Both the position numbers and the translations under genes were made by a program. 64,000 nt of DNA, taken from positions 199,465 through 263,464 of the forward strand of contig CAYUQB010000001.1 of NCBI GenBank assembly GCA_964446735.1, read 5' to 3'. Of the stretch, positions 8,663 through 58,568 are shown in pieces (within the stretch, counting starts at the first letter, position 1; each line of letters starts with the position of its first letter). The DNA comes from an uncultured Candidatus Saccharibacteria bacterium (GTDB taxonomy: Bacteria > Patescibacteriota > Minisyncoccia > Phycocordibacterales > Phycocordibacteraceae). Under the pieces are notes generated by a model, which was not told where the DNA came from, searched no databases, and saw only the letters and a list, made by a program, of their open reading frames with translations.

Positions 8663-8698
8663 GACCCGGACGCTTCGTGCGCCCGGGTCTTTTCTTTA
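8663..8698. terminator. Bidirectional rho-independent terminator
   Basis: gacccggacgc-ttcgt-gcgcccgggtc followed by ttttcttt. It sits between the convergent gene ends at 8630 (+) and 8696 (-). Confidence 0.55.
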
Positions 8699-8962
8699 CT
8701 TAACCGAATCAGGCACGTCTACACCAAACGTACTCGCAAGAATAGCGACAATGGCTTTTGCTCCAAAGATAATGACCAGACCGATGAGACCCCAGATCAT
8801 ATGCTGCTGACCGGTAGTACGCTTTTCTTCGTTTGCTGCTCCCCCAATGAAGTCGACAACGCCCCACACGAAGACGATGAACGCTGCAAGCGCGATAAGG
8901 GTAATGAGCGGATTGATGATGGCAGTTTCTACCTTGCCGAGAAATTCATTGAATGCATTCAT
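8696..8962 (-). CDS. T4SS-pilin-like (VirB2/TrbC-like) small membrane protein, paralog 1
   Basis: 88 aa. It has two hydrophobic helices separated by the short polar loop GGAANEEKRTTGQQ. The architecture is shared with the next four genes. Confidence 0.55.
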   Translation of the reverse strand: MNAFNEFLGKVETAIINPLITLIALAAFIVFVWGVVDFIGGAANEEKRTTGQQHMIWGLIGLVIIFGAKAIVAILASTFGVDVPDSVK

Positions 8963-9026
8963 TGGACTTCATAATAGCAGAACCCGCGTCCAGGGACGCG
9001 GGTTCTGCGTGGAGAGTGGATCGCGA

Positions 9027-9386
9027 TTACCGGCCGCGAGTCGTGTACGGAGCGGTTGGGTACGTTGGGACCGAAGGATTGAGGCTGAAGGTGCCAATGA
9101 GAATGTGGACCAGACCCCAGACAGAGACCATCACAAAGAAGCCAATAAGGCCCCAAAGCATGAGGGACTTGCCTGCTTCACGCTTCTCTTCATCATGTCC
9201 TCCCTGGATGAAGTACTGGAAGATACCCCAGATGAAGACGATGAAGGCGAGTGCGAAGACGATGGGCACTGCCACGTTATTAATAAGGTCGATCACGATA
9301 CGACCTGCATCATTGATGCTGTTGACCTGTGCGAACGCAAGCGCCGGAAGGGCGAGTGCGGCACCGATAAAGCCGAGTTTCTTCAT
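9027..9386 (-). CDS. T4SS-pilin-like (VirB2/TrbC-like) small membrane protein with signal peptide, paralog 2
   Basis: Signal peptide MKKLGFIGAALALPALAFAQ, then PIVFALAFIVFIWGIF..QGGHDEEKREAGKS..LMLWGLIGFFVMVSVWGLV. Confidence 0.6.
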   Translation of the reverse strand: MKKLGFIGAALALPALAFAQVNSINDAGRIVIDLINNVAVPIVFALAFIVFIWGIFQYFIQGGHDEEKREAGKSLMLWGLIGFFVMVSVWGLVHILIGTFSLNPSVPTYPTAPYTTRGR

Positions 9387-9481
9387 GTAATGGATAGATT
9401 ATGTAACCGCGAAGGTTCTTCTATAGGATAGCGCGACGAAAGGGTCAGTCAATCAAGCCTGTACTTTCGTGTGGACAAGGC

Positions 9482-10177
9482 TTATTCGCGACACACGCCC
9501 GTCCCGTCGGCAATGAGATCGCACTTTACTCCCACCGGGCACTGACGATCATCGTAGCAAGGGGTGTACGTCTGACTACCTCCTCCAGAACTGGACGCTG
9601 GTTGTCCCGTCTTCGGATCAATACATTCCGGTGTGCTATTGAAGCCGTAGCTGGCTACATAGACCGTTCCTGGCGGGCAGTTGGCGTCACTTGGTCCTGA
9701 ACCACTGCCTGACCCCGAACCGCTACCCGATCCACTCCCTGACGGCACAAACGTATTGTTGTTATTCGTATTACTTCCCCCCGTCGGTGCTCCGAATATT
9801 GGAAGCGGTGGTCGTGTATCTCGATTGAATCCAAGGGTGCCGACTAAGAGATTGATGATTCCCCAGACTGAGAACATGAGGAAAAATCCGATGAGACCGT
9901 AGAGCACCAACTTCTGACCTTCTTGGCGCTTCTCTTCATTCGTTGCCCCTGCAATGAAGGTGACGAAGACGCCCCAAATGAAGACGATGAAGGCGAGTGC
10001 GAAGACGATGGGCACGACATACCGATCGATGAAGTAGATGATCGTGAGCAAGAAGGTGCCCAACGTGTCTGCGCTTCTGGTATCGGGTTCGGCGGCATAC
10101 GCAAGAGGCGCAAACGTTAGGAAACCAAGAGTAAGGACAACGCTTGCGCGAGCGAAGAATGAAGTAAGTCGGTGCAT
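9482..10177 (-). CDS. T4SS-pilin-like domain fused to a (SG)n linker and a C-terminal 7-Cys module
   Basis: The start was moved to MHRLTSFF, which begins a signal peptide; the track ORF runs to 10213. The pilin hairpin PIVFALAFIVFIWGVF..TNEEKRQEGQK..LVLYGLIGFFLMFSVWGI is followed by SGSGSGSGSGSGSGSG and a Cys-rich tail. Confidence 0.55.
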   Translation of the reverse strand: MHRLTSFFARASVVLTLGFLTFAPLAYAAEPDTRSADTLGTFLLTIIYFIDRYVVPIVFALAFIVFIWGVFVTFIAGATNEEKRQEGQKLVLYGLIGFFLMFSVWGIINLLVGTLGFNRDTRPPLPIFGAPTGGSNTNNNNTFVPSGSGSGSGSGSGSGSGPSDANCPPGTVYVASYGFNSTPECIDPKTGQPASSSGGGSQTYTPCYDDRQCPVGVKCDLIADGTGVCRE

Positions 10178-10213
10178 ATGCCTAAAGCGTAGCAGGCAGT
10201 GGCTAGGCAGCAA

Positions 10214-10525
10214 CTAGCCTACTGGGATAAAGGAGAGGAGGAGCCGAACGATACCCCAGACCCCAAAGAGAACGATCATGCCAATCAAGCTCCAAAGCAC
10301 GAATGCCCTTCCTTTCTGTCGATTCTCCTCACCACCGGTAAAGAAATAGCGAAAGATGCCAAACAGAAAGAACAGGAAGGCGATGATATAGAGGAGAGGA
10401 ATAACTGCCCCATCCACAAACGCGACGATCCCATTGGGTCCATTTACGATCTGTTCGAAGGTCGGAGCAGCGTACGCCGGAAGGGCAATGAGTAACGTGA
10501 GAAATAGGAAAGCGAGACGTATCAT
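10214..10525 (-). CDS. T4SS-pilin-like (VirB2/TrbC-like) small membrane protein with signal peptide, paralog 4
   Basis: Signal peptide MIRLAFLFLTLLIALPAYA, then IPLLYIIAFLFFLFGIF..TGGEENRQKGRA..FVLWSLIGMIVLFGVWGIV. It overlaps the upstream gene by 4 nt (ATGA). Confidence 0.6.
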   Translation of the reverse strand: MIRLAFLFLTLLIALPAYAAPTFEQIVNGPNGIVAFVDGAVIPLLYIIAFLFFLFGIFRYFFTGGEENRQKGRAFVLWSLIGMIVLFGVWGIVRLLLSFIPVG

Positions 10526-11538
10526 AGGGTTTGGACCGTGGCGGCAATAACTTCACTGATCGCTTTAGCACCAAGAAGAATAAGTCCACCGATCACCGTC
10601 CACATAAGCGCGCTGCGCGCGGTCGACACTTTCTCGGGATTACCCTGCGCCGTCACAAAGAGGAATCCGACCCATACCAGCATAAACACGAGGAGAATTG
10701 CACCGAGCTGCACTACCGCATCAAGAATGGCGTTCAAGAGCTCAGGAAGCGAATCGAACTTGAGAGGATTCTGAAGCGTCCCACCTCCTCCACCCTGAGC
10801 ACCACCACTGGTAGCAGGGCCCTTACCTCCGTCCCCCAGGTTCTCATCACCACCCTTGCCACCGCCCCCAAGGCTTTCTGAAAGACCGAGCGCACTGAGT
10901 GTTGAGGAGCATACTGGTGTTGGCAGTGTGTAGGAATAGGTGGTCTTCGTAATCTTCGTACAGGAGGCAATGATCTTTGAGCTGCGGAGTGCCTTGATTT
11001 GCTCGGTGTATCCTGCCACCTTGGCCTTACATGCAGCTTCGGTGTCGTAAAGTTGTGCACCAACGAGGTAACATTCTTTCCCATCCGACTGCTTCTGCCA
11101 TCCTCCCCCCTCCAAGCTGTACTTATTGATCGCAGACGAGGAGAGCGTGCGGGTATAGGTGGCAGTGCCTGATGTGGTTTGAGTTGTCGCCGTACCTGAA
11201 GAAGAAAGCTTGAGTCCGTAGGTGCTGATCGATCCACTACATGCTGGGCCAGGCAATGTATATGTGTAGGAGGTCTTGGTGATTTGCCCACACTTATCTA
11301 TGAGCACGTTTTCCTTGTTGGCCTGTATTTTTGCAAGATACTCAGTACACGCAGTCTGCTCCTTAAATACATTTACGGAGAGGTTGTAGCACTTCGCCTG
11401 CTCGTTTAGGGTGCGGTACTCGACTGCGTACTGGTTCTGGTCCGCAATCTGGACGGTACGGGTGTAGATCTCCGCCTGTGCAGACGAAGGCACGAGCACG
11501 ACTGCTGCGAGAACGAGGAGTAGGGGAAGCGTACGCAT
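10522..11538 (-). CDS. Secreted tandem 4-Cys-module protein fused to a C-terminal T4SS-pilin-like hairpin, paralog 5
   Basis: Signal peptide MRTLPLLLVLAAVVLVPSSAQA. Two roughly 95-aa internal repeats follow (CYNLSV..CTEY..CGQITKTSYTYTLPGPACS and CYLVGA..CKAK..CTKITKTTYSYTLPTPVCS). Then comes a Gly-rich linker and LLVFMLVWVGFLFVTAQGNPEKVSTARSALMWTVIGGLILLGA. Confidence 0.6.
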   Translation of the reverse strand: MRTLPLLLVLAAVVLVPSSAQAEIYTRTVQIADQNQYAVEYRTLNEQAKCYNLSVNVFKEQTACTEYLAKIQANKENVLIDKCGQITKTSYTYTLPGPACSGSISTYGLKLSSSGTATTQTTSGTATYTRTLSSSAINKYSLEGGGWQKQSDGKECYLVGAQLYDTEAACKAKVAGYTEQIKALRSSKIIASCTKITKTTYSYTLPTPVCSSTLSALGLSESLGGGGKGGDENLGDGGKGPATSGGAQGGGGGTLQNPLKFDSLPELLNAILDAVVQLGAILLVFMLVWVGFLFVTAQGNPEKVSTARSALMWTVIGGLILLGAKAISEVIAATVQTL

Positions 11539-11541
11539 GGA

Positions 11542-12843
11542 TTACGGGAGTGCTGCCGAAAGTGATCCGTCAGCGTCGGTGATCGCGTCATGCACGGTCG
11601 CCCGCCCGCCGATGATGCTATGTATCATACCAGCGAAGATACGGTCGGTTACTGCCGGTGCTGGGGAGAGCCAGCCTTTGGCGATGAGTGCCTGAGAATT
11701 CACAATCGGCGCATAGGGATCGTCTGAACGGCTTGCAAGTGCGCTGCGAGCTGCGGGTGCGACACCAATCGCTCGCACGATGAATCCTGCGAGATTCTTC
11801 TCTGCAAGGGCCGCTGCGGTCTGGTATGCGCCCTCTGCGTTGTCACTTGCTTTAGGAATAGCGAACGCGTATACGACCCCGTACCCCACGCGCTCACTTG
11901 CCGTTTCCGGCTGAGGAACTGACGTCATGTCAAAGTCGAGATTTGGGTTTGCTGATGCAATGAGCGAACGCTCGGACGCGAACCCGATATACAGTGCCGA
12001 ATCCCCGGCAATGAAGCTCTGTCGTGCGTCGGTGATGGAACGGTTCCAGGTGTAGACAATTTTCGCGGGGTCAGCGAACTGGGTGTAGAAGCCGATTGCA
12101 GAATCTACCGTCGTGCCCCCAGAAGCGTTCTCGGCACCTTTTGAGAGCGTGGCGCGACTTCCTGACGGCGTATTCTCAACAATGGGATTCCCTGCTTGTA
12201 GGAGAAGCAGCGACACAATGGCACGTGCATTTGGAATATTGTCATAGGTACCAAGCGCAATCGCACTTTTCTCCACCACGCCAAAGGTGATCTTCTCGGT
12301 AAGTGACGGCGTCATACCGACCACTCCCTCCCACGTTTTAGGTGGCTGTGGAATGTTGGCACTGGCTAACCGTGATCGGTTGTAGAACAGTACCAATGGA
12401 TCAACGGCAATCGGTATGCCGTAGGTGCCGGAAGACGTCAGGAATAAGTAGGAGAGTGGGACGTAGGTATCGCGGAACGAACGCTCCGATAGTGTCGAGA
12501 ACGGAATGACCGACAACTTACTACGCTCGGTCACCAAGCGTTCTTGCGTGGTGATGATGAGATCAGGTCCTGCGCCTGATGCAATGGCTTCCGCGAGATC
12601 ACCATCGAAGTTCACCGGATCATGCTCCTGATAGATAAGTGCATTGAATTCCTGGCGCGTACGACGGAGCTCATCAAGTGCTGGCTGCACCGCACTATCC
12701 GGAAGCGTTCCCCAGATCACCACTTCGCCGATTGGTTTTGCTTGGCCGAATCCCTTGAAGAGCGCGAACGCGAGGATGCCCCCTAAGGCAGCGACGCCAA
12801 AGATCGAGATCACGATGATTTGGAACGGGCGCATGGTGGTCAT
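11542..12843 (-). CDS. Extracellular solute-binding protein (ABC transporter substrate-binding, family-1-like) with an N-terminal TM anchor
   Basis: 433 aa. An N-terminal TM helix is followed by a periplasmic-binding-protein-like fold (PDLIITTQERL..., YIGFASERSL). The family assignment is by overall pattern only. Confidence 0.5.
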   Translation of the reverse strand: MTTMRPFQIIVISIFGVAALGGILAFALFKGFGQAKPIGEVVIWGTLPDSAVQPALDELRRTRQEFNALIYQEHDPVNFDGDLAEAIASGAGPDLIITTQERLVTERSKLSVIPFSTLSERSFRDTYVPLSYLFLTSSGTYGIPIAVDPLVLFYNRSRLASANIPQPPKTWEGVVGMTPSLTEKITFGVVEKSAIALGTYDNIPNARAIVSLLLLQAGNPIVENTPSGSRATLSKGAENASGGTTVDSAIGFYTQFADPAKIVYTWNRSITDARQSFIAGDSALYIGFASERSLIASANPNLDFDMTSVPQPETASERVGYGVVYAFAIPKASDNAEGAYQTAAALAEKNLAGFIVRAIGVAPAARSALASRSDDPYAPIVNSQALIAKGWLSPAPAVTDRIFAGMIHSIIGGRATVHDAITDADGSLSAALP

Positions 12844-13370
12844 GGAAGGGTAAAGAGTATTGAGTAATGATGGGGGCCTCCGGCAAATGACTTCATCTTA
12901 TGAAACCCAGCTCCGATAAAAAGCTCCTCGGCCTCACGTTCAGGAACGACGAGTGATTCAGCCGGACCCATACCGCCATGGCTTCCGGTCCAATCGACGA
13001 TGAGCAGCTTACCGCCAGGACGCAGGATACGCTTCGCCTCTTCAACGGCTTCGACTTTGCTTTCAAGTTGAAACAGTACGTTTGCAAGTATAAGTGCATC
13101 GAGAATGTTTTCACGAAGCCGTGTACCACCAGGGCGCTCGAGATCACCCCAGACCGTCTCCACATTTCTAAGTCCCCGTGCATGCGCGGCATCACGAACA
13201 TGCTTCAAGACATCTTCCTGTACATCCATGGCATATACCTGACCGGTCGGTCCAACCACACTTGCGGCTGCGAGTGCGTAGTGGCCGGTACCGCTTCCCA
13301 GGTCTCCCACCTTCATACCGTCAAAGAGTCCCATCTGCAGCACGTTGGCCCACGGATCCGAGAAGTGCAT
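12840..13370 (-). CDS. Class I SAM-dependent methyltransferase
   Basis: Motif I is VGDLGSGTGHYALAAA, motif II is VYAMDV, and LLIVDW follows later. The first ATG at 13397 is also possible; no SD precedes either start. Confidence 0.7.
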   Translation of the reverse strand: MHFSDPWANVLQMGLFDGMKVGDLGSGTGHYALAAASVVGPTGQVYAMDVQEDVLKHVRDAAHARGLRNVETVWGDLERPGGTRLRENILDALILANVLFQLESKVEAVEEAKRILRPGGKLLIVDWTGSHGGMGPAESLVVPEREAEELFIGAGFHKMKSFAGGPHHYSILFTLP

Positions 13371-13480
13371 GTATAAAAAATAGCATGCGAGATGCATGCA
13401 TGAGATTGAATCAACAGAAATAGGAAAGGGCGCGCCTTGTGAGCGCGCCCCGACCGTCTTTGCTGTAGAAGACCCGAGGC

Positions 13481-13669
13481 TTACCAGGGCCTGGGCATGA
13501 TGGTGGTGTCGTTGTTGCCGGCGAGGTAGAACCGGCCGGCGGGCGACTTGCGCCAGTCGGCGGCGGCGGGCGAAACACCGAGCGGGCCTTGGTTGAAGAG
13601 GCCGGGACTGGCGTCCCGATCCCTCGGATCGGCCGGGCGGTTCTGATCGCGTTCGCGGTCGTGGATCAT
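13481..13669 (-). CDS. Hypothetical 62-aa Arg/Asp-rich protein in a GC-rich islet
   Basis: AGGAGAGAG SD 7 nt upstream of ATG (MIHDRERDQNRPADPRDRDASPGLF...). The hairpin gggcgcgcc-ttgtga-gcgcgcccc lies downstream. GC is about 65-68% by eye. Confidence 0.35.
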   Translation of the reverse strand: MIHDRERDQNRPADPRDRDASPGLFNQGPLGVSPAAADWRKSPAGRFYLAGNNDTTIMPRPW

Positions 13670-13691
13670 AGTCTCTCTCCTGGTTGCAGAT

Positions 13692-13934
13692 TCAGTCGTC
13701 GATCGAGTGCTGAGTCGCGGGTTCAACGAACCCCCAACTGTACACCCTGGTCACCGGATGGTAGCGCACCGGGACCTTCGGTGGGCGGTATCCCTTCTCG
13801 GGCGAGACGGGAACCGGGCGAGCCTTGTACCGCACGATGGTGTATCTCCAGCCATCGCTGCGGAGTTCGGCCTTCCACGCATCACTACTGGGGGCGCTCA
13901 TTTCGGACACCCCACGCGTTTTTGAGAGTGCCAC
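13692..13934 (-). CDS. Hypothetical 80-aa protein (GTG start) in a GC-rich islet
   Basis: AAGGAG lies 6 nt upstream of GTG. The sequence (V/M)ALSKTRGVSEMSAPSSDAWKAELRSDGWRYTIVRYKARPVPVSPEKGYRPPKVPVRYHPV has no recognisable domain. Confidence 0.4.
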   Translation of the reverse strand: MALSKTRGVSEMSAPSSDAWKAELRSDGWRYTIVRYKARPVPVSPEKGYRPPKVPVRYHPVTRVYSWGFVEPATQHSIDD

Positions 13935-14036
13935 GAGTGGCTCCTTTCTGTAATTGGGCCGGATGGGTCTTCAATTTCAAAGACGCTGCATCCGCAGTGG
14001 ATAGTAAACTCAAATACGCAAAATGTCAATAGCAGC

Positions 14037-56585: not shown

Positions 56586-58568
56586 CTATGGAAGTACGGG
56601 AGCAGTAAGTTCCATATCAGGGCACGCAATGCGGTTGATCTTGTAGCTGGTCGTCTTATAGACGTAGCCAGTTGGGGTCTGTGCGGTCGGAAGACCGAAC
56701 GGTACCCACGGGAGAAGTACATCTTCCCAGTACTTGAGCTGGAAGGCGTTCACCGCGAGCGTCGTGACGGTGTCGAAGAGTCCAGAGGTCGAGAGGTTCG
56801 TATCCATCTCATCATTGAGGAATTCTTGGAGTACGGTTACCTGACCCGAATCGTTTACTTGGCTCTCACGCATCCAGCTAGTAATGAGAGGACAGGAGGC
56901 GCCGAGCACTTCTCCGCCGCTACTGCTGCGGGAGCCGCCTCCACCACCACCTCCACCTCCTCCGCCCCCACCTCCGCCAGAGCTGGCAATAGTGGGTTCG
57001 AAGTCGAAGATAGTGGTCATGGTGCTGGTAGCAGTACTCGTTCCGGTAGTGGTTCCAGTGATGTCATTCATGCGCGTAATGCGCAGGTCATCGATCGCTG
57101 CGGATACCGTCGTTGAGCCGTTAGGACTTTGGAGACCCACACCCAAGAGCGGGCTGGTAGTTCCCACCGTCAGATTTGGGAATGCCGTGAGGAGGTTCGT
57201 CCAGCTCCGGAACTGGTTGGTGTTCCCATCAGGCCATTGATTGCCCGAGGTCGCATAGTTCGACCAGGTCCACATGCTGCTTGAGGTTGCGAGCTGCCAG
57301 GTTTGCCAGGTGCCGGTGGCAACGGTTCCTGAATGTTGTGGCATGAAGACCAGCTGACCATTCACCGATCCATTGCCACTAAAGAGCGGAGCGAAGGCGA
57401 TGAACGGAGCGACTACGGAAGTAGTTGCAGTGGTCGTACCGGATACGGTTCCGAAGTCGGAGAGATACGTAGCGAAGGAGAGTTCACTCACGTCAGAGAG
57501 CTCGGTACCGCCGAACTGATAGGTAGCGATAGCGGAGGTGCCGGTCGTGGTTGCTGTAAGTGAGACACTTCCAGAGCCAAGCGGTGCGGTACCCGGACCG
57601 GTCACGAAGGTACCGACTGACGGATCGATGTTCTGCGTTACGCCGTTCCAGAAGAACCACTTATTGGTCGAGCTTGCCTCTGCAAGGGTTGTGGCAAGGT
57701 CTGCTTCACGCACGACAATGGTCTCGGTCACCGGTGTCGTGGTCCCGTTTCCGCCACCACCACCGCCTCCCCCACCTCCTCCATTGGTAGGTGGCATGTT
57801 GTCGGTGAGGCAGTACTCATTTACTACCAGCACATACTTATTCGTCGTGAGGTTAGTGAAGGAAGGAGCACTCACGGTGAGCGTTGCTGTCTCAGCTCCC
57901 GCGAGGGTATCACCCGCTCGATATCCTACGGTGCGATAGTGGCCGGCAACGCAGGCACTACCGTTTGCAATCACTGCATCGGTTGACGACGCTGCGGGCG
58001 CATTCACTTCATGTGCGGTGTAGGAAGCGCCCGAGGCCATAAGCGATGTGCTCACCTGTGCGGTACCGAGAGTGAAGGTGCCGGTTGTGGTCGTACCGCC
58101 ATTAAGATTGGCTGCGGTCCATGTTGCTTCCATGGGGAAGAAGCGGAACGTGGTGGTTGCATCCGCGAATGACTGAGTCGTCGATGCATCCTGAATGTAT
58201 TTGACGAGATGCACCTGCACGAATGCAGGTGTGGTGGTCCCCCCACCTCCCCCACCACCATTTGTCGGACAGGTTGTGGTTGCAGTTGGATTCGTGGTTG
58301 TGCCCGTGGGGAGGGTCGGACAGGTTGGCTCCGTCGGAGCAGTTGGTTCTGCTGGAGACGTGGGTGAGGTCGGTTCGGTGGGTGCAGTCGGAGCAGTTGG
58401 TTCCGTCGGAGGAGTCGGGCTAACAACGATTGGGGGCGTAGTCGTGCTCGTCTGTGCGATGACGGCCTGCGGCATGCCTGACGTTATGAACGTCAGTGCA
58501 AGCAGCGCCACAAAAACACTGCCCGCCCCCTGCAGCGTCTTCGGGCGCAATCTGATTTTCTTCAACAT
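56586..58568 (-). CDS. Large secreted low-complexity surface protein (Pro/Thr repeats, poly-Gly tracts)
   Basis: The signal peptide is followed by PTEPTAPTAPTEPTSPTSPAEPTAPTEPT repeats. There are several G7-G15 runs and T/S/G-rich β-rich regions. Confidence 0.55.
   Translation of the reverse strand: MLKKIRLRPKTLQGAGSVFVALLALTFITSGMPQAVIAQTSTTTPPIVVSPTPPTEPTAPTAPTEPTSPTSPAEPTAPTEPTCPTLPTGTTTNPTATTTCPTNGGGGGGGTTTPAFVQVHLVKYIQDASTTQSFADATTTFRFFPMEATWTAANLNGGTTTTGTFTLGTAQVSTSLMASGASYTAHEVNAPAASSTDAVIANGSACVAGHYRTVGYRAGDTLAGAETATLTVSAPSFTNLTTNKYVLVVNEYCLTDNMPPTNGGGGGGGGGGGNGTTTPVTETIVVREADLATTLAEASSTNKWFFWNGVTQNIDPSVGTFVTGPGTAPLGSGSVSLTATTTGTSAIATYQFGGTELSDVSELSFATYLSDFGTVSGTTTATTSVVAPFIAFAPLFSGNGSVNGQLVFMPQHSGTVATGTWQTWQLATSSSMWTWSNYATSGNQWPDGNTNQFRSWTNLLTAFPNLTVGTTSPLLGVGLQSPNGSTTVSAAIDDLRITRMNDITGTTTGTSTATSTMTTIFDFEPTIASSGGGGGGGGGGGGGGGSRSSSGGEVLGASCPLITSWMRESQVNDSGQVTVLQEFLNDEMDTNLSTSGLFDTVTTLAVNAFQLKYWEDVLLPWVPFGLPTAQTPTGYVYKTTSYKINRIACPDMELTAPVLP
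58313..58436 (-). repeat. Tandem imperfect PT(E/A/S)P-coding repeats inside the surface-protein gene
   Basis: gtcggagcagttggttc recurs at about 58333 and 58393. It encodes a PTxPT periodicity. Confidence 0.5.

What the first reader, a model, noticed from the sequence alone, without database searches (positions are those of the whole stretch)
10522..11538. Pilin-hairpin fused to a secreted tandem 4-Cys module: a possible tip-adhesin-like pilin
After a signal peptide the protein has two internally duplicated modules of about 95 aa. The first is CYNLSVNVFKEQTACTEYLAKIQANKENVLIDKCGQITKTSYTYTLPGPACS...STYGLKLSSSG. The second is CYLVGAQLYDTEAACKAKVAGYTEQIKALRSSKIIASCTKITKTTYSYTLPTPVCS...SALGLSESLG. 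Each carries four conserved Cys, so disulfide-stabilised extracellular domains are likely. A Gly-rich linker (GGGGKGGDENLGDGGKGPATSGGAQGGGGG) follows, then the C-terminal pilin-like hairpin. Fusing a globular duplicated domain to a pilin anchor would display that domain on or along the filament. I do not recognise the 4-Cys module as a known domain.
Basis: seen in the sequence. Interest (0 to 1): 0.7.

Follow-up and report, generated by a model that had tools for sequence, protein, structure and literature searches.

The report
Pilin-family protein carrying a variable disulfide head
A tiny-genome (Patescibacteria-type) bacterium encodes a secretion-system "pilin" whose membrane/filament anchor is conserved, but which carries two copies of a previously undescribed four-cysteine domain on a flexible tether. 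It is one rare version of a fast-changing outward-facing "head" that may decide what these host-dependent bacteria stick to.

Summary
The ORF at 10522-11538 (minus strand, 338 aa) has these parts:
- a signal peptide
- two homologous ~95-aa modules with four invariant Cys each (33% identity, z=23 against shuffles)
- a 30-residue Gly-rich linker
- a C-terminal two-helix hairpin that scores above the Pfam threshold for PF18895 T4SS_pilin

It is the first of five tandem PF18895 genes. They sit in a housekeeping operon (methyltransferase, solute-binding protein, pilins) that is syntenic in 60-77 of 80 related species. No VirB4/VirD4 gene was recognised in the window.

The module is a real and very rare domain. 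About 10 cluster representatives exist among 1.84 billion proteins, and all are fused to a PF18895-type pilin hairpin. AlphaFold gives pLDDT 93, and nothing in Pfam, NCBIfam or the PDB matches by sequence or fold.

Across 80 species-representative loci the anchor is conserved (about 50-80% identical to this one). The N-terminal "head" is hypervariable: 57 unrelated types, often with an even number of Cys. Strains with 94-100% identical anchors can carry heads only 27-60% identical.

Best reading: an outward-displayed, swappable recognition or adhesion head on a VirB2-like pilin anchor. Tip location is unsupported, and filament formation and binding are untested.

This is a new variant of a known kind and of moderate interest.

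The parts
10522..11538 (-). Whole CDS of the head-bearing pilin ('pil1'), 338 aa plus stop codon
   Evidence: ORF list and translation. An identical protein, P0001, is in public collections.
11473..11538 (-). Signal peptide, residues 1-22 (predicted SPase I cleavage after AQA)
   Evidence: Hydrophobic stretch at residues 1-25. AXA motif read from the sequence. Disordered in the model.
11194..11472 (-). 4-Cys module 1, residues 23-115 (Cys 50, 64, 83, 100)
   Evidence: Module HMM domain at 23-115. Self-alignment. Same strand/helix order as module 2 in the AF2 model, pLDDT about 75-86.
11164..11193 (-). Thr-rich inter-module linker, residues 116-125
   Evidence: pLDDT below 50 for residues 102-122. 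Composition read from the sequence.
10870..11163 (-). 4-Cys module 2, residues 126-223 (Cys 156, 170, 193, 210)
   Evidence: HMM domain at 126-225. AF2 pLDDT 93.1, pTM 0.79. The four Cys are invariant in all 13 modules aligned.
10780..10869 (-). Gly-rich flexible linker, residues 224-253
   Evidence: Read from the sequence. pLDDT below 50 for residues 223-260. Equivalent low-complexity G/P/T/S linkers occur in the homologues.
10762..10776 (-). Conserved L-x-N-P-L motif, residues 255-259, at the linker/anchor junction
   Evidence: L255, N257 and P258 are nearly invariant in the family. The motif is present in nearly all pil1 orthologues and absent from the other four paralogues.
10525..10755 (-). 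Pilin-family helical hairpin, residues 262-338, with polar loop GNPEKVSTARS (invariant E302, K303, A307, R308)
   Evidence: PF18895 at 47.3 bits against a cut-off of 26.6. Helices 264-296 and 301-337. Invariant columns.
10214..10525 (-). pil2, 103-aa PF18895 pilin; its start overlaps the pil1 stop by 4 nt
   Evidence: PF18895 at 30.4 bits. An orthologous type sits at the same position in other loci.
9482..10213 (-). pil3, 243 aa: PF18895 hairpin first, then a (GS)n linker and a C-terminal 6-Cys tail
   Evidence: PF18895 at 36.4 bits for residues 57-123. The tail has no homologue in 80 loci.
9027..9386 (-). pil4, 119-aa PF18895 pilin (a type present in 1-4 copies per locus)
   Evidence: PF18895 at 45.5 bits. 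Paralogue typing.
8696..8962 (-). pil5, 88-aa PF18895 pilin without a signal peptide, last gene of the array
   Evidence: PF18895 at 32.4 bits. Paralogue typing.
11542..12843 (-). Membrane-anchored solute-binding-protein homologue, immediately upstream (stop codon 3 nt before the pil1 ATG)
   Evidence: SBP_bac_1 at 66.8 bits. Adjacent to pil1 in 77 of 80 loci.
12840..13397 (-). Class I SAM methyltransferase; overlaps the SBP gene start by 4 nt
   Evidence: Methyltransf_31/11/25 hits. Present in 67 of 80 loci at the same position.

Best explanation
The gene encodes the head-bearing first subunit ('pil1') of a conserved five-type array of VirB2-like PF18895 pilin-family proteins in a Paceibacteria-type Patescibacterium.

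Shown:
- A Sec-type signal peptide.
- Two homologous ~95-aa alpha/beta modules, each with four invariant Cys.
- Disordered Thr- and Gly-rich linkers.
- A C-terminal two-helix hydrophobic hairpin of the PF18895 family, with an invariant E-K...A-R loop.

Inferred:
- After export and signal-peptide cleavage the hairpin sits in the membrane, with the basic loop inside and both termini outside.
- If it polymerises like VirB2, the hairpin is built into a filament with its termini on the outer face.
- Either way, the disulfide-stabilised tandem head is held outside the cell on a roughly 30-40-residue flexible tether.
- The head is a swappable recognition or adhesion module for a partner or host surface. 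Its diversity between species and strains reflects diversifying or balancing selection and allele replacement.
- The hairpin provides the conserved assembly function.
For: Architecture:
- establish the parts listed above.

The module is a genuine constrained domain:
- A profile search of 1.84 billion representatives finds 11 hits, one of them spurious. All real hits are signal peptide + 1-2 modules + linker + pilin hairpin.
- The four Cys and one Tyr are invariant in 13 modules.
- AF2 gives pLDDT 93.1 with only 13 sequences.

Topology:
- In the solved T-pilus, the VirB2 termini are on the outward side and the loop with its basic residue faces the lumen.
- The sister gene pil3 carries its Cys-rich extension at the C-terminus instead. 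P0012 carries one at both ends. This fits both termini being on the same outer side.

Disulfides outside the cell are plausible:
- CPR genomes are enriched in MdbA-like oxidoreductase and VKOR.
- 34 of the 40 heads with 2 or more Cys have an even number.

Variable head on a conserved anchor:
- There is about one pil1 per locus, always first in the array, in 80 species loci.
- The 72 heads of 40 aa or more fall into 57 unrelated clusters.
- Within the 4-Cys family, heads are 23-60% identical while anchors are 54-100% identical.
- P0002 and P0009 come from one metagenome. Their linker and anchor differ at 2 positions, but their heads are 39% identical.
- Other pairs with 94-100% identical anchors have heads 27-60% identical, while the upstream SBP C-terminus is 84-100% identical.
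- In the DNA comparison of L024 and L025, the flanks are about 72-97% identical and the anchor and downstream genes about 83-97%, while the head drops to 30-67%.
- Head dN is about 2-40 times anchor dN in 11 of 12 pairs; in the twelfth the anchor dN is zero. Head dS is clearly elevated or saturated in several pairs.

Literature:
- No PrgB-type adhesin was found in 3,035 Patescibacteria genomes, while VirB2-like arrays are common and essential in one cultivated species.
Against: - No PF18895 protein has been shown to form a pilus. Reviews call it a possibility.
- No VirB4, VirD4 or VirB6 was recognised in the 64-kb window or within +/-10 kb in the related loci inspected.
- The hairpin misses the TrbC/VirB2 Pfam cut-off (19.2 against 27.9).
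- An anchor profile hits no solved pilin sequence, and Foldseek of the full model finds no pilin.
- Many orthologues have no folded head, or not even a signal peptide. The head is therefore not needed for the core function.
- Head dN/dS stays below 1 as an average (about 0.08-0.6). Relaxed constraint on the linker part contributes to the variability.
- A roughly 200-residue head on every subunit of a tightly packed filament would be crowded. My rough estimate from the T-pilus parameters is about 640 square angstroms of outer surface per subunit.
- No binding partner is known.
Confidence: 0.5

Rival explanations
1. The PF18895 hairpin here is only a membrane anchor, and no filament forms. The head and linker make a cell-surface coat or spacer. 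Their variability is driven by evasion (phage, predators, host defences) or by relaxed constraint, not by adhesion.
For: - No T4SS ATPase or channel genes lie near the array in this lineage.
- The operon partners are an SBP and a methyltransferase, which are housekeeping-type genes.
- 32 of 80 orthologues have only a low-complexity G/P/T/S stretch with no Cys.
- Head dN/dS is below 1.
- Pili are not demonstrated for any Patescibacteria T4SS.
Against: - Five distinct, individually conserved hairpin paralogue types in a fixed order look like subunits of an assembly rather than five separate anchors.
- An invariant E-K/A-R loop parallels the lipid-binding luminal loop of VirB2.
- Elevated head dS and mosaic alleles point to maintained old alleles rather than mere drift.
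Confidence: 0.22
2. The head is a pro-region or separately released secreted protein. Cleavage at or near the strictly conserved L-x-N-P-L junction frees the 4-Cys tandem domain and leaves a short mature pilin, as long leaders are removed from TraA/TrbC propilins.
For: - The LxNPL motif is nearly invariant exactly at the boundary between the hypervariable region and the anchor, and is specific to pil1.
- Some orthologues start only 10-20 residues before it, with no leader. An anchor starting near NPL is therefore a viable form.
- Conjugative propilins are known to be processed (established knowledge of TraA/TrbC maturation; not tested here).
Against: - No protease is linked to the locus.
- The motif may equally be an N-cap or inter-subunit contact of helix 1.
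- A discarded pro-region would not need a folded domain with invariant Cys that is maintained as old alleles.
- A signal peptide is already present for export.
Confidence: 0.12
3. One reading: pil1 is a tip-located adhesin pilin, one or a few copies capping a filament built from the short pilins.
For: - There is about one pil1 gene per locus against 1-4 copies of the pil4 type, and pil1 is always first in the operon.
- A bulky head is easier to fit at a tip than along the shaft (inference from the geometry).
- No VirB5 or PrgB-like adhesin is known in Patescibacteria.
Against: - No data on stoichiometry or location.
- The head is absent in many species.
- The long flexible linker would also allow lateral display.
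- Gene order is not evidence of position in a filament.
Confidence: 0.12
4. Not a real gene or feature: a chance ORF, or a repeat produced by misassembly.
For: None found.
Against: - The identical protein is found on an independent Logan assembly contig.
- Orthologues occur in conserved synteny in 80 species.
- The repeat copies are only 33% identical and unrelated at DNA level.
- The Pfam hit is above threshold.
Confidence: 0.01

Closest known systems
VirB2-like pilin arrays of Patescibacteria (Pfam PF18895 T4SS_pilin), e.g. the essential six-pilin cluster of Ca. Southlakia epibionticum ML1 and the 441 arrays catalogued in PMC12102498
   Same: - Same Pfam family, above threshold.
- Tandem array of sequence-divergent hairpin proteins.
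- Patescibacterial, chromosomal.
- NCBI names relatives 'pilin'.
   Different: - Here the array is not next to virB4/virB6. It sits in a methyltransferase-SBP operon between gyrA and infB.
- The papers read do not describe a pilin with a folded N-terminal ectodomain or a hypervariable head.
- The tandem 4-Cys domain is new.
VirB2/TrbC/TraA conjugative pilins of Gram-negative T4SS (T-pilus, F-pilus)
   Same: - Signal peptide plus a two-helix hydrophobic hairpin with a short loop carrying a basic residue.
- Weak TrbC PF04956 hits for all five paralogues (E 0.0014-0.08).
- About a third of close anchor relatives carry a precomputed PF04956 hit.
- Termini face outward in solved filaments, which would put the head outside.
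   Different: - Below the PF04956 cut-off.
- No sequence hit to solved pilins.
- Known VirB2/TraA pilins are about 65-75-residue mature proteins without globular domains.
- The organism is a monoderm.
- No cognate machinery is seen nearby.
T4SS adhesins: VirB5 at pilus tips (Gram-negative) and PrgB (Gram-positive)
   Same: Proposed role only: target-cell contact for a T4SS-related surface structure.
   Different: - No sequence or fold similarity; no Pfam hit at E up to 1.
- Those adhesins are separate proteins, not fused to the pilin.
- PrgB-like adhesins were not detected in Patescibacteria.
Multi-copy variable VirB2 paralogues of Bartonella (Trw) and Anaplasma
   Same: Tandem pilin paralogues, with variation thought to serve host-surface recognition or immune evasion (as cited).
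   Different: There the variation is in the pilin itself. Here the hairpin is the conserved part, and the variation is confined to an appended N-terminal head.
Type IV pilus / T2SS minor pilins with appended globular domains (my own knowledge; not tested)
   Same: Design principle: a conserved polymerisation helix plus a variable outward domain, with one special subunit per operon.
   Different: - Unrelated family.
- No class III (prepilin peptidase) signal or conserved Glu5.
- The anchor here is a C-terminal hairpin, not an N-terminal single helix.

Membership tests
Pfam PF18895 T4SS_pilin (Patescibacteria VirB2-like pilin) | Match to the family HMM at or above the gathering score | tested here: met
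   47.3 bits against a cut-off of 26.6, residues 262-331, model positions 3-71 of 71. The precomputed annotation of P0001 also gives PF18895.
Pfam PF18895 T4SS_pilin (Patescibacteria VirB2-like pilin) | Two hydrophobic helices joined by a short polar loop (hairpin) | tested here: met
   Hydropathy peaks at 266-298 and 309-334. AF2 helices 264-296 and 301-337, pLDDT about 84-90.
Pfam PF18895 T4SS_pilin (Patescibacteria VirB2-like pilin) | Occurs in tandem arrays of divergent paralogues | tested here: met
   Five adjacent PF18895 genes at 8696-11538, all above the cut-off. The paralogue order is conserved in 80 loci.
Pfam PF18895 T4SS_pilin (Patescibacteria VirB2-like pilin) | Encoded near virB4 or other T4SS genes (true for 1135 of 1948 assemblies, so typical rather than defining) | tested here: not met
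   None of the 26 window ORFs scanned against Pfam is VirB4-, VirD4- or VirB6-like, including nearly all ORFs of 300 aa or more; the remaining ORFs were only listed. Conserved neighbours in related loci are GyrA, ClpB, IF2, an SBP and similar. The rest of the genome could not be searched.
Pfam PF18895 T4SS_pilin (Patescibacteria VirB2-like pilin) | Polymerises into an extracellular filament | not testable with these tools
   Not shown for any family member, according to the literature read.
TrbC/VirB2 pilin (Pfam PF04956) | Match to the family HMM at or above the gathering score | tested here: not met
   19.2 bits against a cut-off of 27.9, E 0.0014. About a third of close anchor relatives carry a precomputed PF04956 hit.
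TrbC/VirB2 pilin (Pfam PF04956) | Detectable similarity to solved VirB2/TraA/TrbC pilins | tested here: not met
   A profile of 27 anchors against all PDB sequences gave only chance membrane-protein hits, E 0.055 or worse. Foldseek of the full model found no pilin. Short helical hairpins are hard for both methods.
Known domain families, for the 4-Cys module | Sequence or fold match to any described domain | tested here: not met
   [not shown]
VirB5 / PrgB-type T4SS adhesins | Homology to VirB5/TrbJ or PrgB families | tested here: not met
   No such Pfam family appears at E up to 1.
Type IV (T4P/T2SS) pilins | Class III signal peptide (G|F/M...E5) followed by a single N-terminal hydrophobic helix | tested here: not met
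   The sequence has a classical AXA signal peptide, and the hydrophobic anchor is a C-terminal hairpin. No T4P pilin Pfam hit.
Disulfide-bonded extracellular domain | Cys pairs within bonding distance, and oxidising machinery present | not testable with these tools
   The four Cys are invariant and even Cys counts prevail among heads. MdbA/VKOR were not looked for outside the window. The CPR-wide enrichment comes from the literature.

The most novel reading that the evidence does not exclude
The N-terminal heads of pil1 are the missing host-specificity determinants of Patescibacteria. They are cassette-like, strain-variable adhesins displayed on a VirB2-like filament. In Paceibacteria this filament is encoded with an orphan solute-binding protein and a methyltransferase, away from any T4SS locus, and so may be a distinct attachment or uptake organelle. 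The tandem 4-Cys domain would then be a new ligand-binding fold.
Probability: 0.2. Interest if true: 0.8.

Novelty: new variant of a known kind. Interest (0 to 1): 0.55.

Why it matters
Patescibacteria depend on attaching to other cells. Their VirB2-like pilin arrays are essential in the one species tested, yet the role of these arrays is unknown, and no adhesin has been linked to their T4SS.

A single conserved pilin-family subunit that carries a folded, disulfide-rich, rapidly replaced outward head is a concrete candidate for the part that touches the partner cell. It yields testable reagents (recombinant heads, head-swap alleles) and a sequence marker for strain-level host specificity in metagenomes.

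The 4-Cys module itself is a confidently predicted domain without a known sequence or fold relative.

Tried and rejected
- Word-index protein search with the module alignment A2 returned nothing, although P0001 must match. This is a tool limitation, not evidence. The exhaustive profile search was used instead.
- The anchor query in the same index returned only proteins of 148 aa or less and missed P0001 and P0002. It cannot be used to count long head-bearing forms.
- The AlphaFold-database fold libraries (afdb50, afdb_sample) were not available. 'No known fold' therefore rests on the PDB only.
- Foldseek of the full-length model against the PDB, meant to confirm pilin-like structure, gave only non-significant eL20 ribosomal protein hits. 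The test was inconclusive.
- The profile of anchors against PDB sequences gave no pilin hit.
- DNA for the two informative alleles P0002 and P0009 could not be fetched because the sample file is too large. The mosaic pattern within the 4-Cys family is therefore shown only at protein level.
- The metagenome scan added no new 4-Cys module beyond a duplicate of L003.
- Cluster 4 of the neighbourhood clustering is an antisense-ORF artefact of the pilin genes.
- I considered a mobile-element or phage origin and rejected it. The flanks are housekeeping genes in conserved synteny.
- I considered a type IV pilin and rejected it on signal type and anchor position.
- I considered a link to diversity-generating retroelements, but no reverse transcriptase turned up in the Pfam scans of the window. 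This was not tested formally.
Full report
**The observation**

The ORF lies exactly at 10522..11538 on the minus strand and encodes 338 residues. Reading from the N-terminus:
- a classical signal peptide (residues 1-22...SSAQA|E; hydropathy)
- module 1 (23-115)
- a Thr-rich spacer (116-125)
- module 2 (126-223)
- a conserved L-Q-N-P-L motif (255-259)
- two long hydrophobic helices (about 264-296 and 301-337) joined by the loop GNPEKVSTARS

The two modules align at 33% identity over 88 residues (54 bits, E 5e-16). Their Smith-Waterman score of 156 compares with 29 +/- 5.5 for 2000 shuffles (z = 23). DNA similarity between them is gone, so the duplication is old. Each module has four Cys, at 50/64/83/100 and 156/170/193/210. 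The C-terminal region matches Pfam PF18895 T4SS_pilin at 47.3 bits against a gathering score of 26.6. The only correction is that each module starts about 25 residues before its first Cys, with a conserved (T)YTRT strand.

**The gene's setting**

It is the first of five consecutive PF18895 genes on the same strand:
- 10522-11538 (338 aa)
- 10214-10525 (103 aa)
- 9482-10213 (243 aa)
- 9027-9386 (119 aa)
- 8696-8962 (88 aa)

All five score above the Pfam cut-off. The first three are contiguous: the pil1 stop overlaps the pil2 start by 4 nt and pil3 starts directly after pil2. pil4 and pil5 follow after gaps of about 95 and 64 nt. Directly upstream are a membrane-anchored SBP_bac_1 homologue (11542-12843) and a SAM methyltransferase (12840-13397), also tightly coupled.

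The rest of the window is housekeeping:
- GyrA, IF2, RbfA, alanine racemase
- FtsA/FtsZ, MurJ, LepA, GroEL/ES
- an aminoacyl-tRNA synthetase, tRNAs and RNase P RNA

I found no VirB4-, VirD4- or VirB6-like gene in the 64 kb. The protein occurs on a 516-kb NCBI contig and on an independent Logan assembly. The nearest relatives carry titles such as Paceibacterota, Parcubacteria and Kaiserbacteria, so the organism is a Paceibacteria-type Patescibacterium.

**The 4-Cys module is a real, rare, unclassified domain**

- The word-index search with residues 23-224 found only the protein itself and one relative, P0002: 60% identity, a single module, PF18895.
- An exhaustive profile search of 1.84 billion cluster representatives found 11 proteins at E up to 0.001, one of them a spurious low-complexity repeat.
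- Every real hit has the same plan: signal peptide, one or two modules, a G/S/T/P-rich linker, then a PF18895-type pilin hairpin. P0012 carries a more divergent hairpin.
- P0003 also has two modules, and P0012 adds a C-terminal Cys-rich tail.
- In an alignment of 13 modules, the four Cys and one Tyr are invariant.
- With only those 13 sequences, AlphaFold2 gives a confident alpha/beta model: pLDDT 93.1, pTM 0.79, element order b-b-b-a-b-b-a-b.
- The full-length model shows the same fold twice, disordered linkers (102-122, 223-260) and a helical hairpin, with low pTM (0.34). It is a beads-on-a-string protein.
- Among 160 related loci from species representatives and metagenomes, only the window, L002 and L003 (= L082) contain the module.
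- P0003's two modules resemble each other (47%) more than they resemble either module of this protein (35-39%). The tandem state therefore probably arose more than once. This is an inference.

**The wider pattern: a conserved anchor with a hypervariable head**

- The anchor of this protein has at least 115 relatives among species-representative genomes; the 80 retained have best-segment identities of 38-78%.
- In these loci the gene order S1 - MBL - GyrA - methyltransferase - SBP - pilin array - ... - IF2 is conserved (SBP in 77, methyltransferase in 67, GyrA in 60 of 80).
- The array has a fixed order of paralogue types. There is about one pil1 per locus (82 best matches in 80 loci), first in the array in every locus inspected. 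It is followed by pil2, sometimes pil3, one to four pil4-type genes, and pil5.
- Only pil1 carries the LxNPL motif.
- N-terminal to that motif, the orthologues are unalignable. The 72 heads of 40 residues or more fall into 57 BLAST clusters.
- Half of the heads have two or more Cys, and 34 of those 40 have an even number. 32 have no Cys (low-complexity G/P/T/S repeats in those inspected). A few genes start just before LxNPL with no signal peptide.
- Within the 4-Cys family, heads are 23-60% identical while anchors are 54-100% identical.
- P0002 and P0009 come from the same metagenome, on two short contigs. Their linker and anchor differ at two positions and their upstream 15 residues are identical, but their heads are only 39% identical.
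- Other pairs repeat this. Anchors at 94-100% identity and SBP C-termini at 84-100% go with heads at 27-60%.
- In a sliding-window DNA comparison of L024 and L025, the flanks are about 72-97% identical and the anchor and downstream genes about 83-97%, while the head drops to 30-67%.
- Head dN is about 2-40 times anchor dN in 11 of 12 pairs; in the twelfth the anchor dN is zero. In several pairs head dS is clearly higher or saturated while anchor and SBP dS are 0.4-0.9. Average head dN/dS stays below 1.
- Together this indicates a bounded hypervariable region that is maintained as old alleles and exchanged between close strains. It is not simply decaying sequence.

**How it most likely works**

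Shown: the domain architecture, the family assignment of the hairpin, the constraint on the module, and the head/anchor contrast.

Inferred:
- Sec export and signal-peptidase cleavage after A22.
- Insertion of the hairpin with the basic loop (invariant E302, K303, A307, R308) on the cytoplasmic side and both termini outside.
- Oxidation of the Cys pairs outside the cell, plausible because CPR genomes are enriched in MdbA-like oxidoreductases and VKOR.

In the solved T-pilus, the VirB2 termini are on the outward side and the loop with Arg91 faces the lumen, where it binds lipid. If PF18895 proteins assemble similarly, the head would sit on the outer surface on a tether of about 30-40 residues. 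The sister gene pil3 carries its Cys-rich extension at the C-terminus, and P0012 carries extensions at both ends. That fits both termini facing the same side.

From the T-pilus parameters (76 angstrom diameter, five subunits per 13.4 angstrom rise) I estimate about 640 square angstroms of outer surface per subunit. This is tight for a 200-residue head at the shaft surface, but it is relieved by the long linker. Sparse or terminal incorporation is plausible, but nothing tests it.

The head's variability, together with the reported absence of PrgB-type adhesins in Patescibacteria, makes partner-surface recognition the most economical function. I give this overall reading about 0.5.

**Rivals**

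1. The hairpin is only a membrane anchor, and the head and linker form a variable surface coat shaped by evasion or relaxed constraint (0.22). This is favoured by the lack of nearby T4SS genes, the many headless or linker-only orthologues and dN/dS below 1. It is disfavoured by the five individually conserved paralogue types and by the old-allele signal.
2. The head is cleaved off at the conserved LxNPL junction (0.12). The motif's position and the headless orthologues fit. A folded domain with invariant Cys maintained as old alleles does not look like a discarded pro-region, and no protease is linked.
4. An artefact is excluded.

**Comparison with what is known**

VirB2-like pilin arrays in Patescibacteria are already described: 441 arrays of 2-11 genes in 383 assemblies, and an essential array in Ca. 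Southlakia epibionticum. The array as such is therefore known. Whether these proteins form pili is still called a possibility.

In the papers I could search, I found no description of a pilin-family member with a folded N-terminal ectodomain, of a hypervariable head on a conserved anchor, or of the methyltransferase-SBP-pilin operon.

Membership in PF18895 is met. Membership in TrbC/VirB2 (PF04956) is not met by score (19.2 against 27.9), although about a third of close anchor relatives carry that annotation. No similarity to solved pilins could be shown.

I therefore file this as a new variant of a known kind. It is a PF18895 pilin-family subunit with an appended tandem domain that is itself a new, rare family.

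**Verdict**

Interest is moderate (0.55). The finding is worth following because it singles out a concrete, testable candidate for host contact in a group where that is an open question. All functional steps remain inferences.

Noticed in passing
window 8696-13397 (minus strand); loci L002-L081: The pilin array is tightly coupled to an orphan membrane-anchored solute-binding-protein homologue and a SAM methyltransferase. The order GyrA - MTase - SBP - pilins recurs in 60-77 of 80 related species loci, with no ABC permease or T4SS gene adjacent. I could not separate functional linkage from general synteny.
   Followed up: partly
window 9485-9808 (minus strand; residues 136-243 of the 243-aa pilin at 9482-10213): This paralogue has the reverse layout. 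The PF18895 hairpin comes first, then a (GS)n repeat and a C-terminal tail with 6 Cys. The tail has no homologue in the 80 related loci, so it is a second variable Cys-rich appendage, at the other terminus.
   Followed up: partly
window 10762-10776 (residues 255-259) and the equivalent position in L002-L161: A nearly invariant L-x-N-P-L motif marks the exact boundary between the hypervariable N-terminal region and the conserved anchor. It is specific to the first pilin of the array. Its role is unexplained: cleavage site, helix cap or subunit contact.
   Followed up: partly
P0002 and P0009 (JGI metagenome 3300071358, contigs of 1237 and 1910 bp): Two alleles from one community have virtually identical linker, anchor and upstream sequence, but 4-Cys heads only 39% identical. 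Both sit on short contigs, as expected where strain variation breaks assemblies. DNA was not retrievable.
   Followed up: partly
L024 vs L025, about 1157-1240 nt downstream of the pil1 start: A second local drop in DNA identity (to about 52-72%) occurs further down the array, suggesting another variable segment in a downstream pilin gene.
   Followed up: no
L002 2105-3124: A 339-aa ORF inside that array has a pil4-type hairpin (45% identity to the window's 119-aa pilin) plus a large extension. Other paralogue types can therefore also acquire big appendages.
   Followed up: no
window 9425-9452 (minus strand): A sigma-70-like promoter match (TTGACT / 16 nt / TATCCT, 9 of 12) lies in the 95-nt gap before the 119-aa pilin gene. 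This is the paralogue type that is multi-copy in other species. It is a consensus match only.
   Followed up: no
window 13398-14036: An approximately 640-nt stretch between gyrA and the methyltransferase gene has no convincing ORF and no Rfam family. It carries a strong promoter-like site (14029-14001, 10 of 12) and a GC-rich terminator-like hairpin (13451-13427), both on the minus strand.
   Followed up: no
window 56586-58568 (minus strand): A 660-aa protein with an N-terminal signal/anchor sequence has no Pfam match.
   Followed up: no
[not shown]
   Followed up: no
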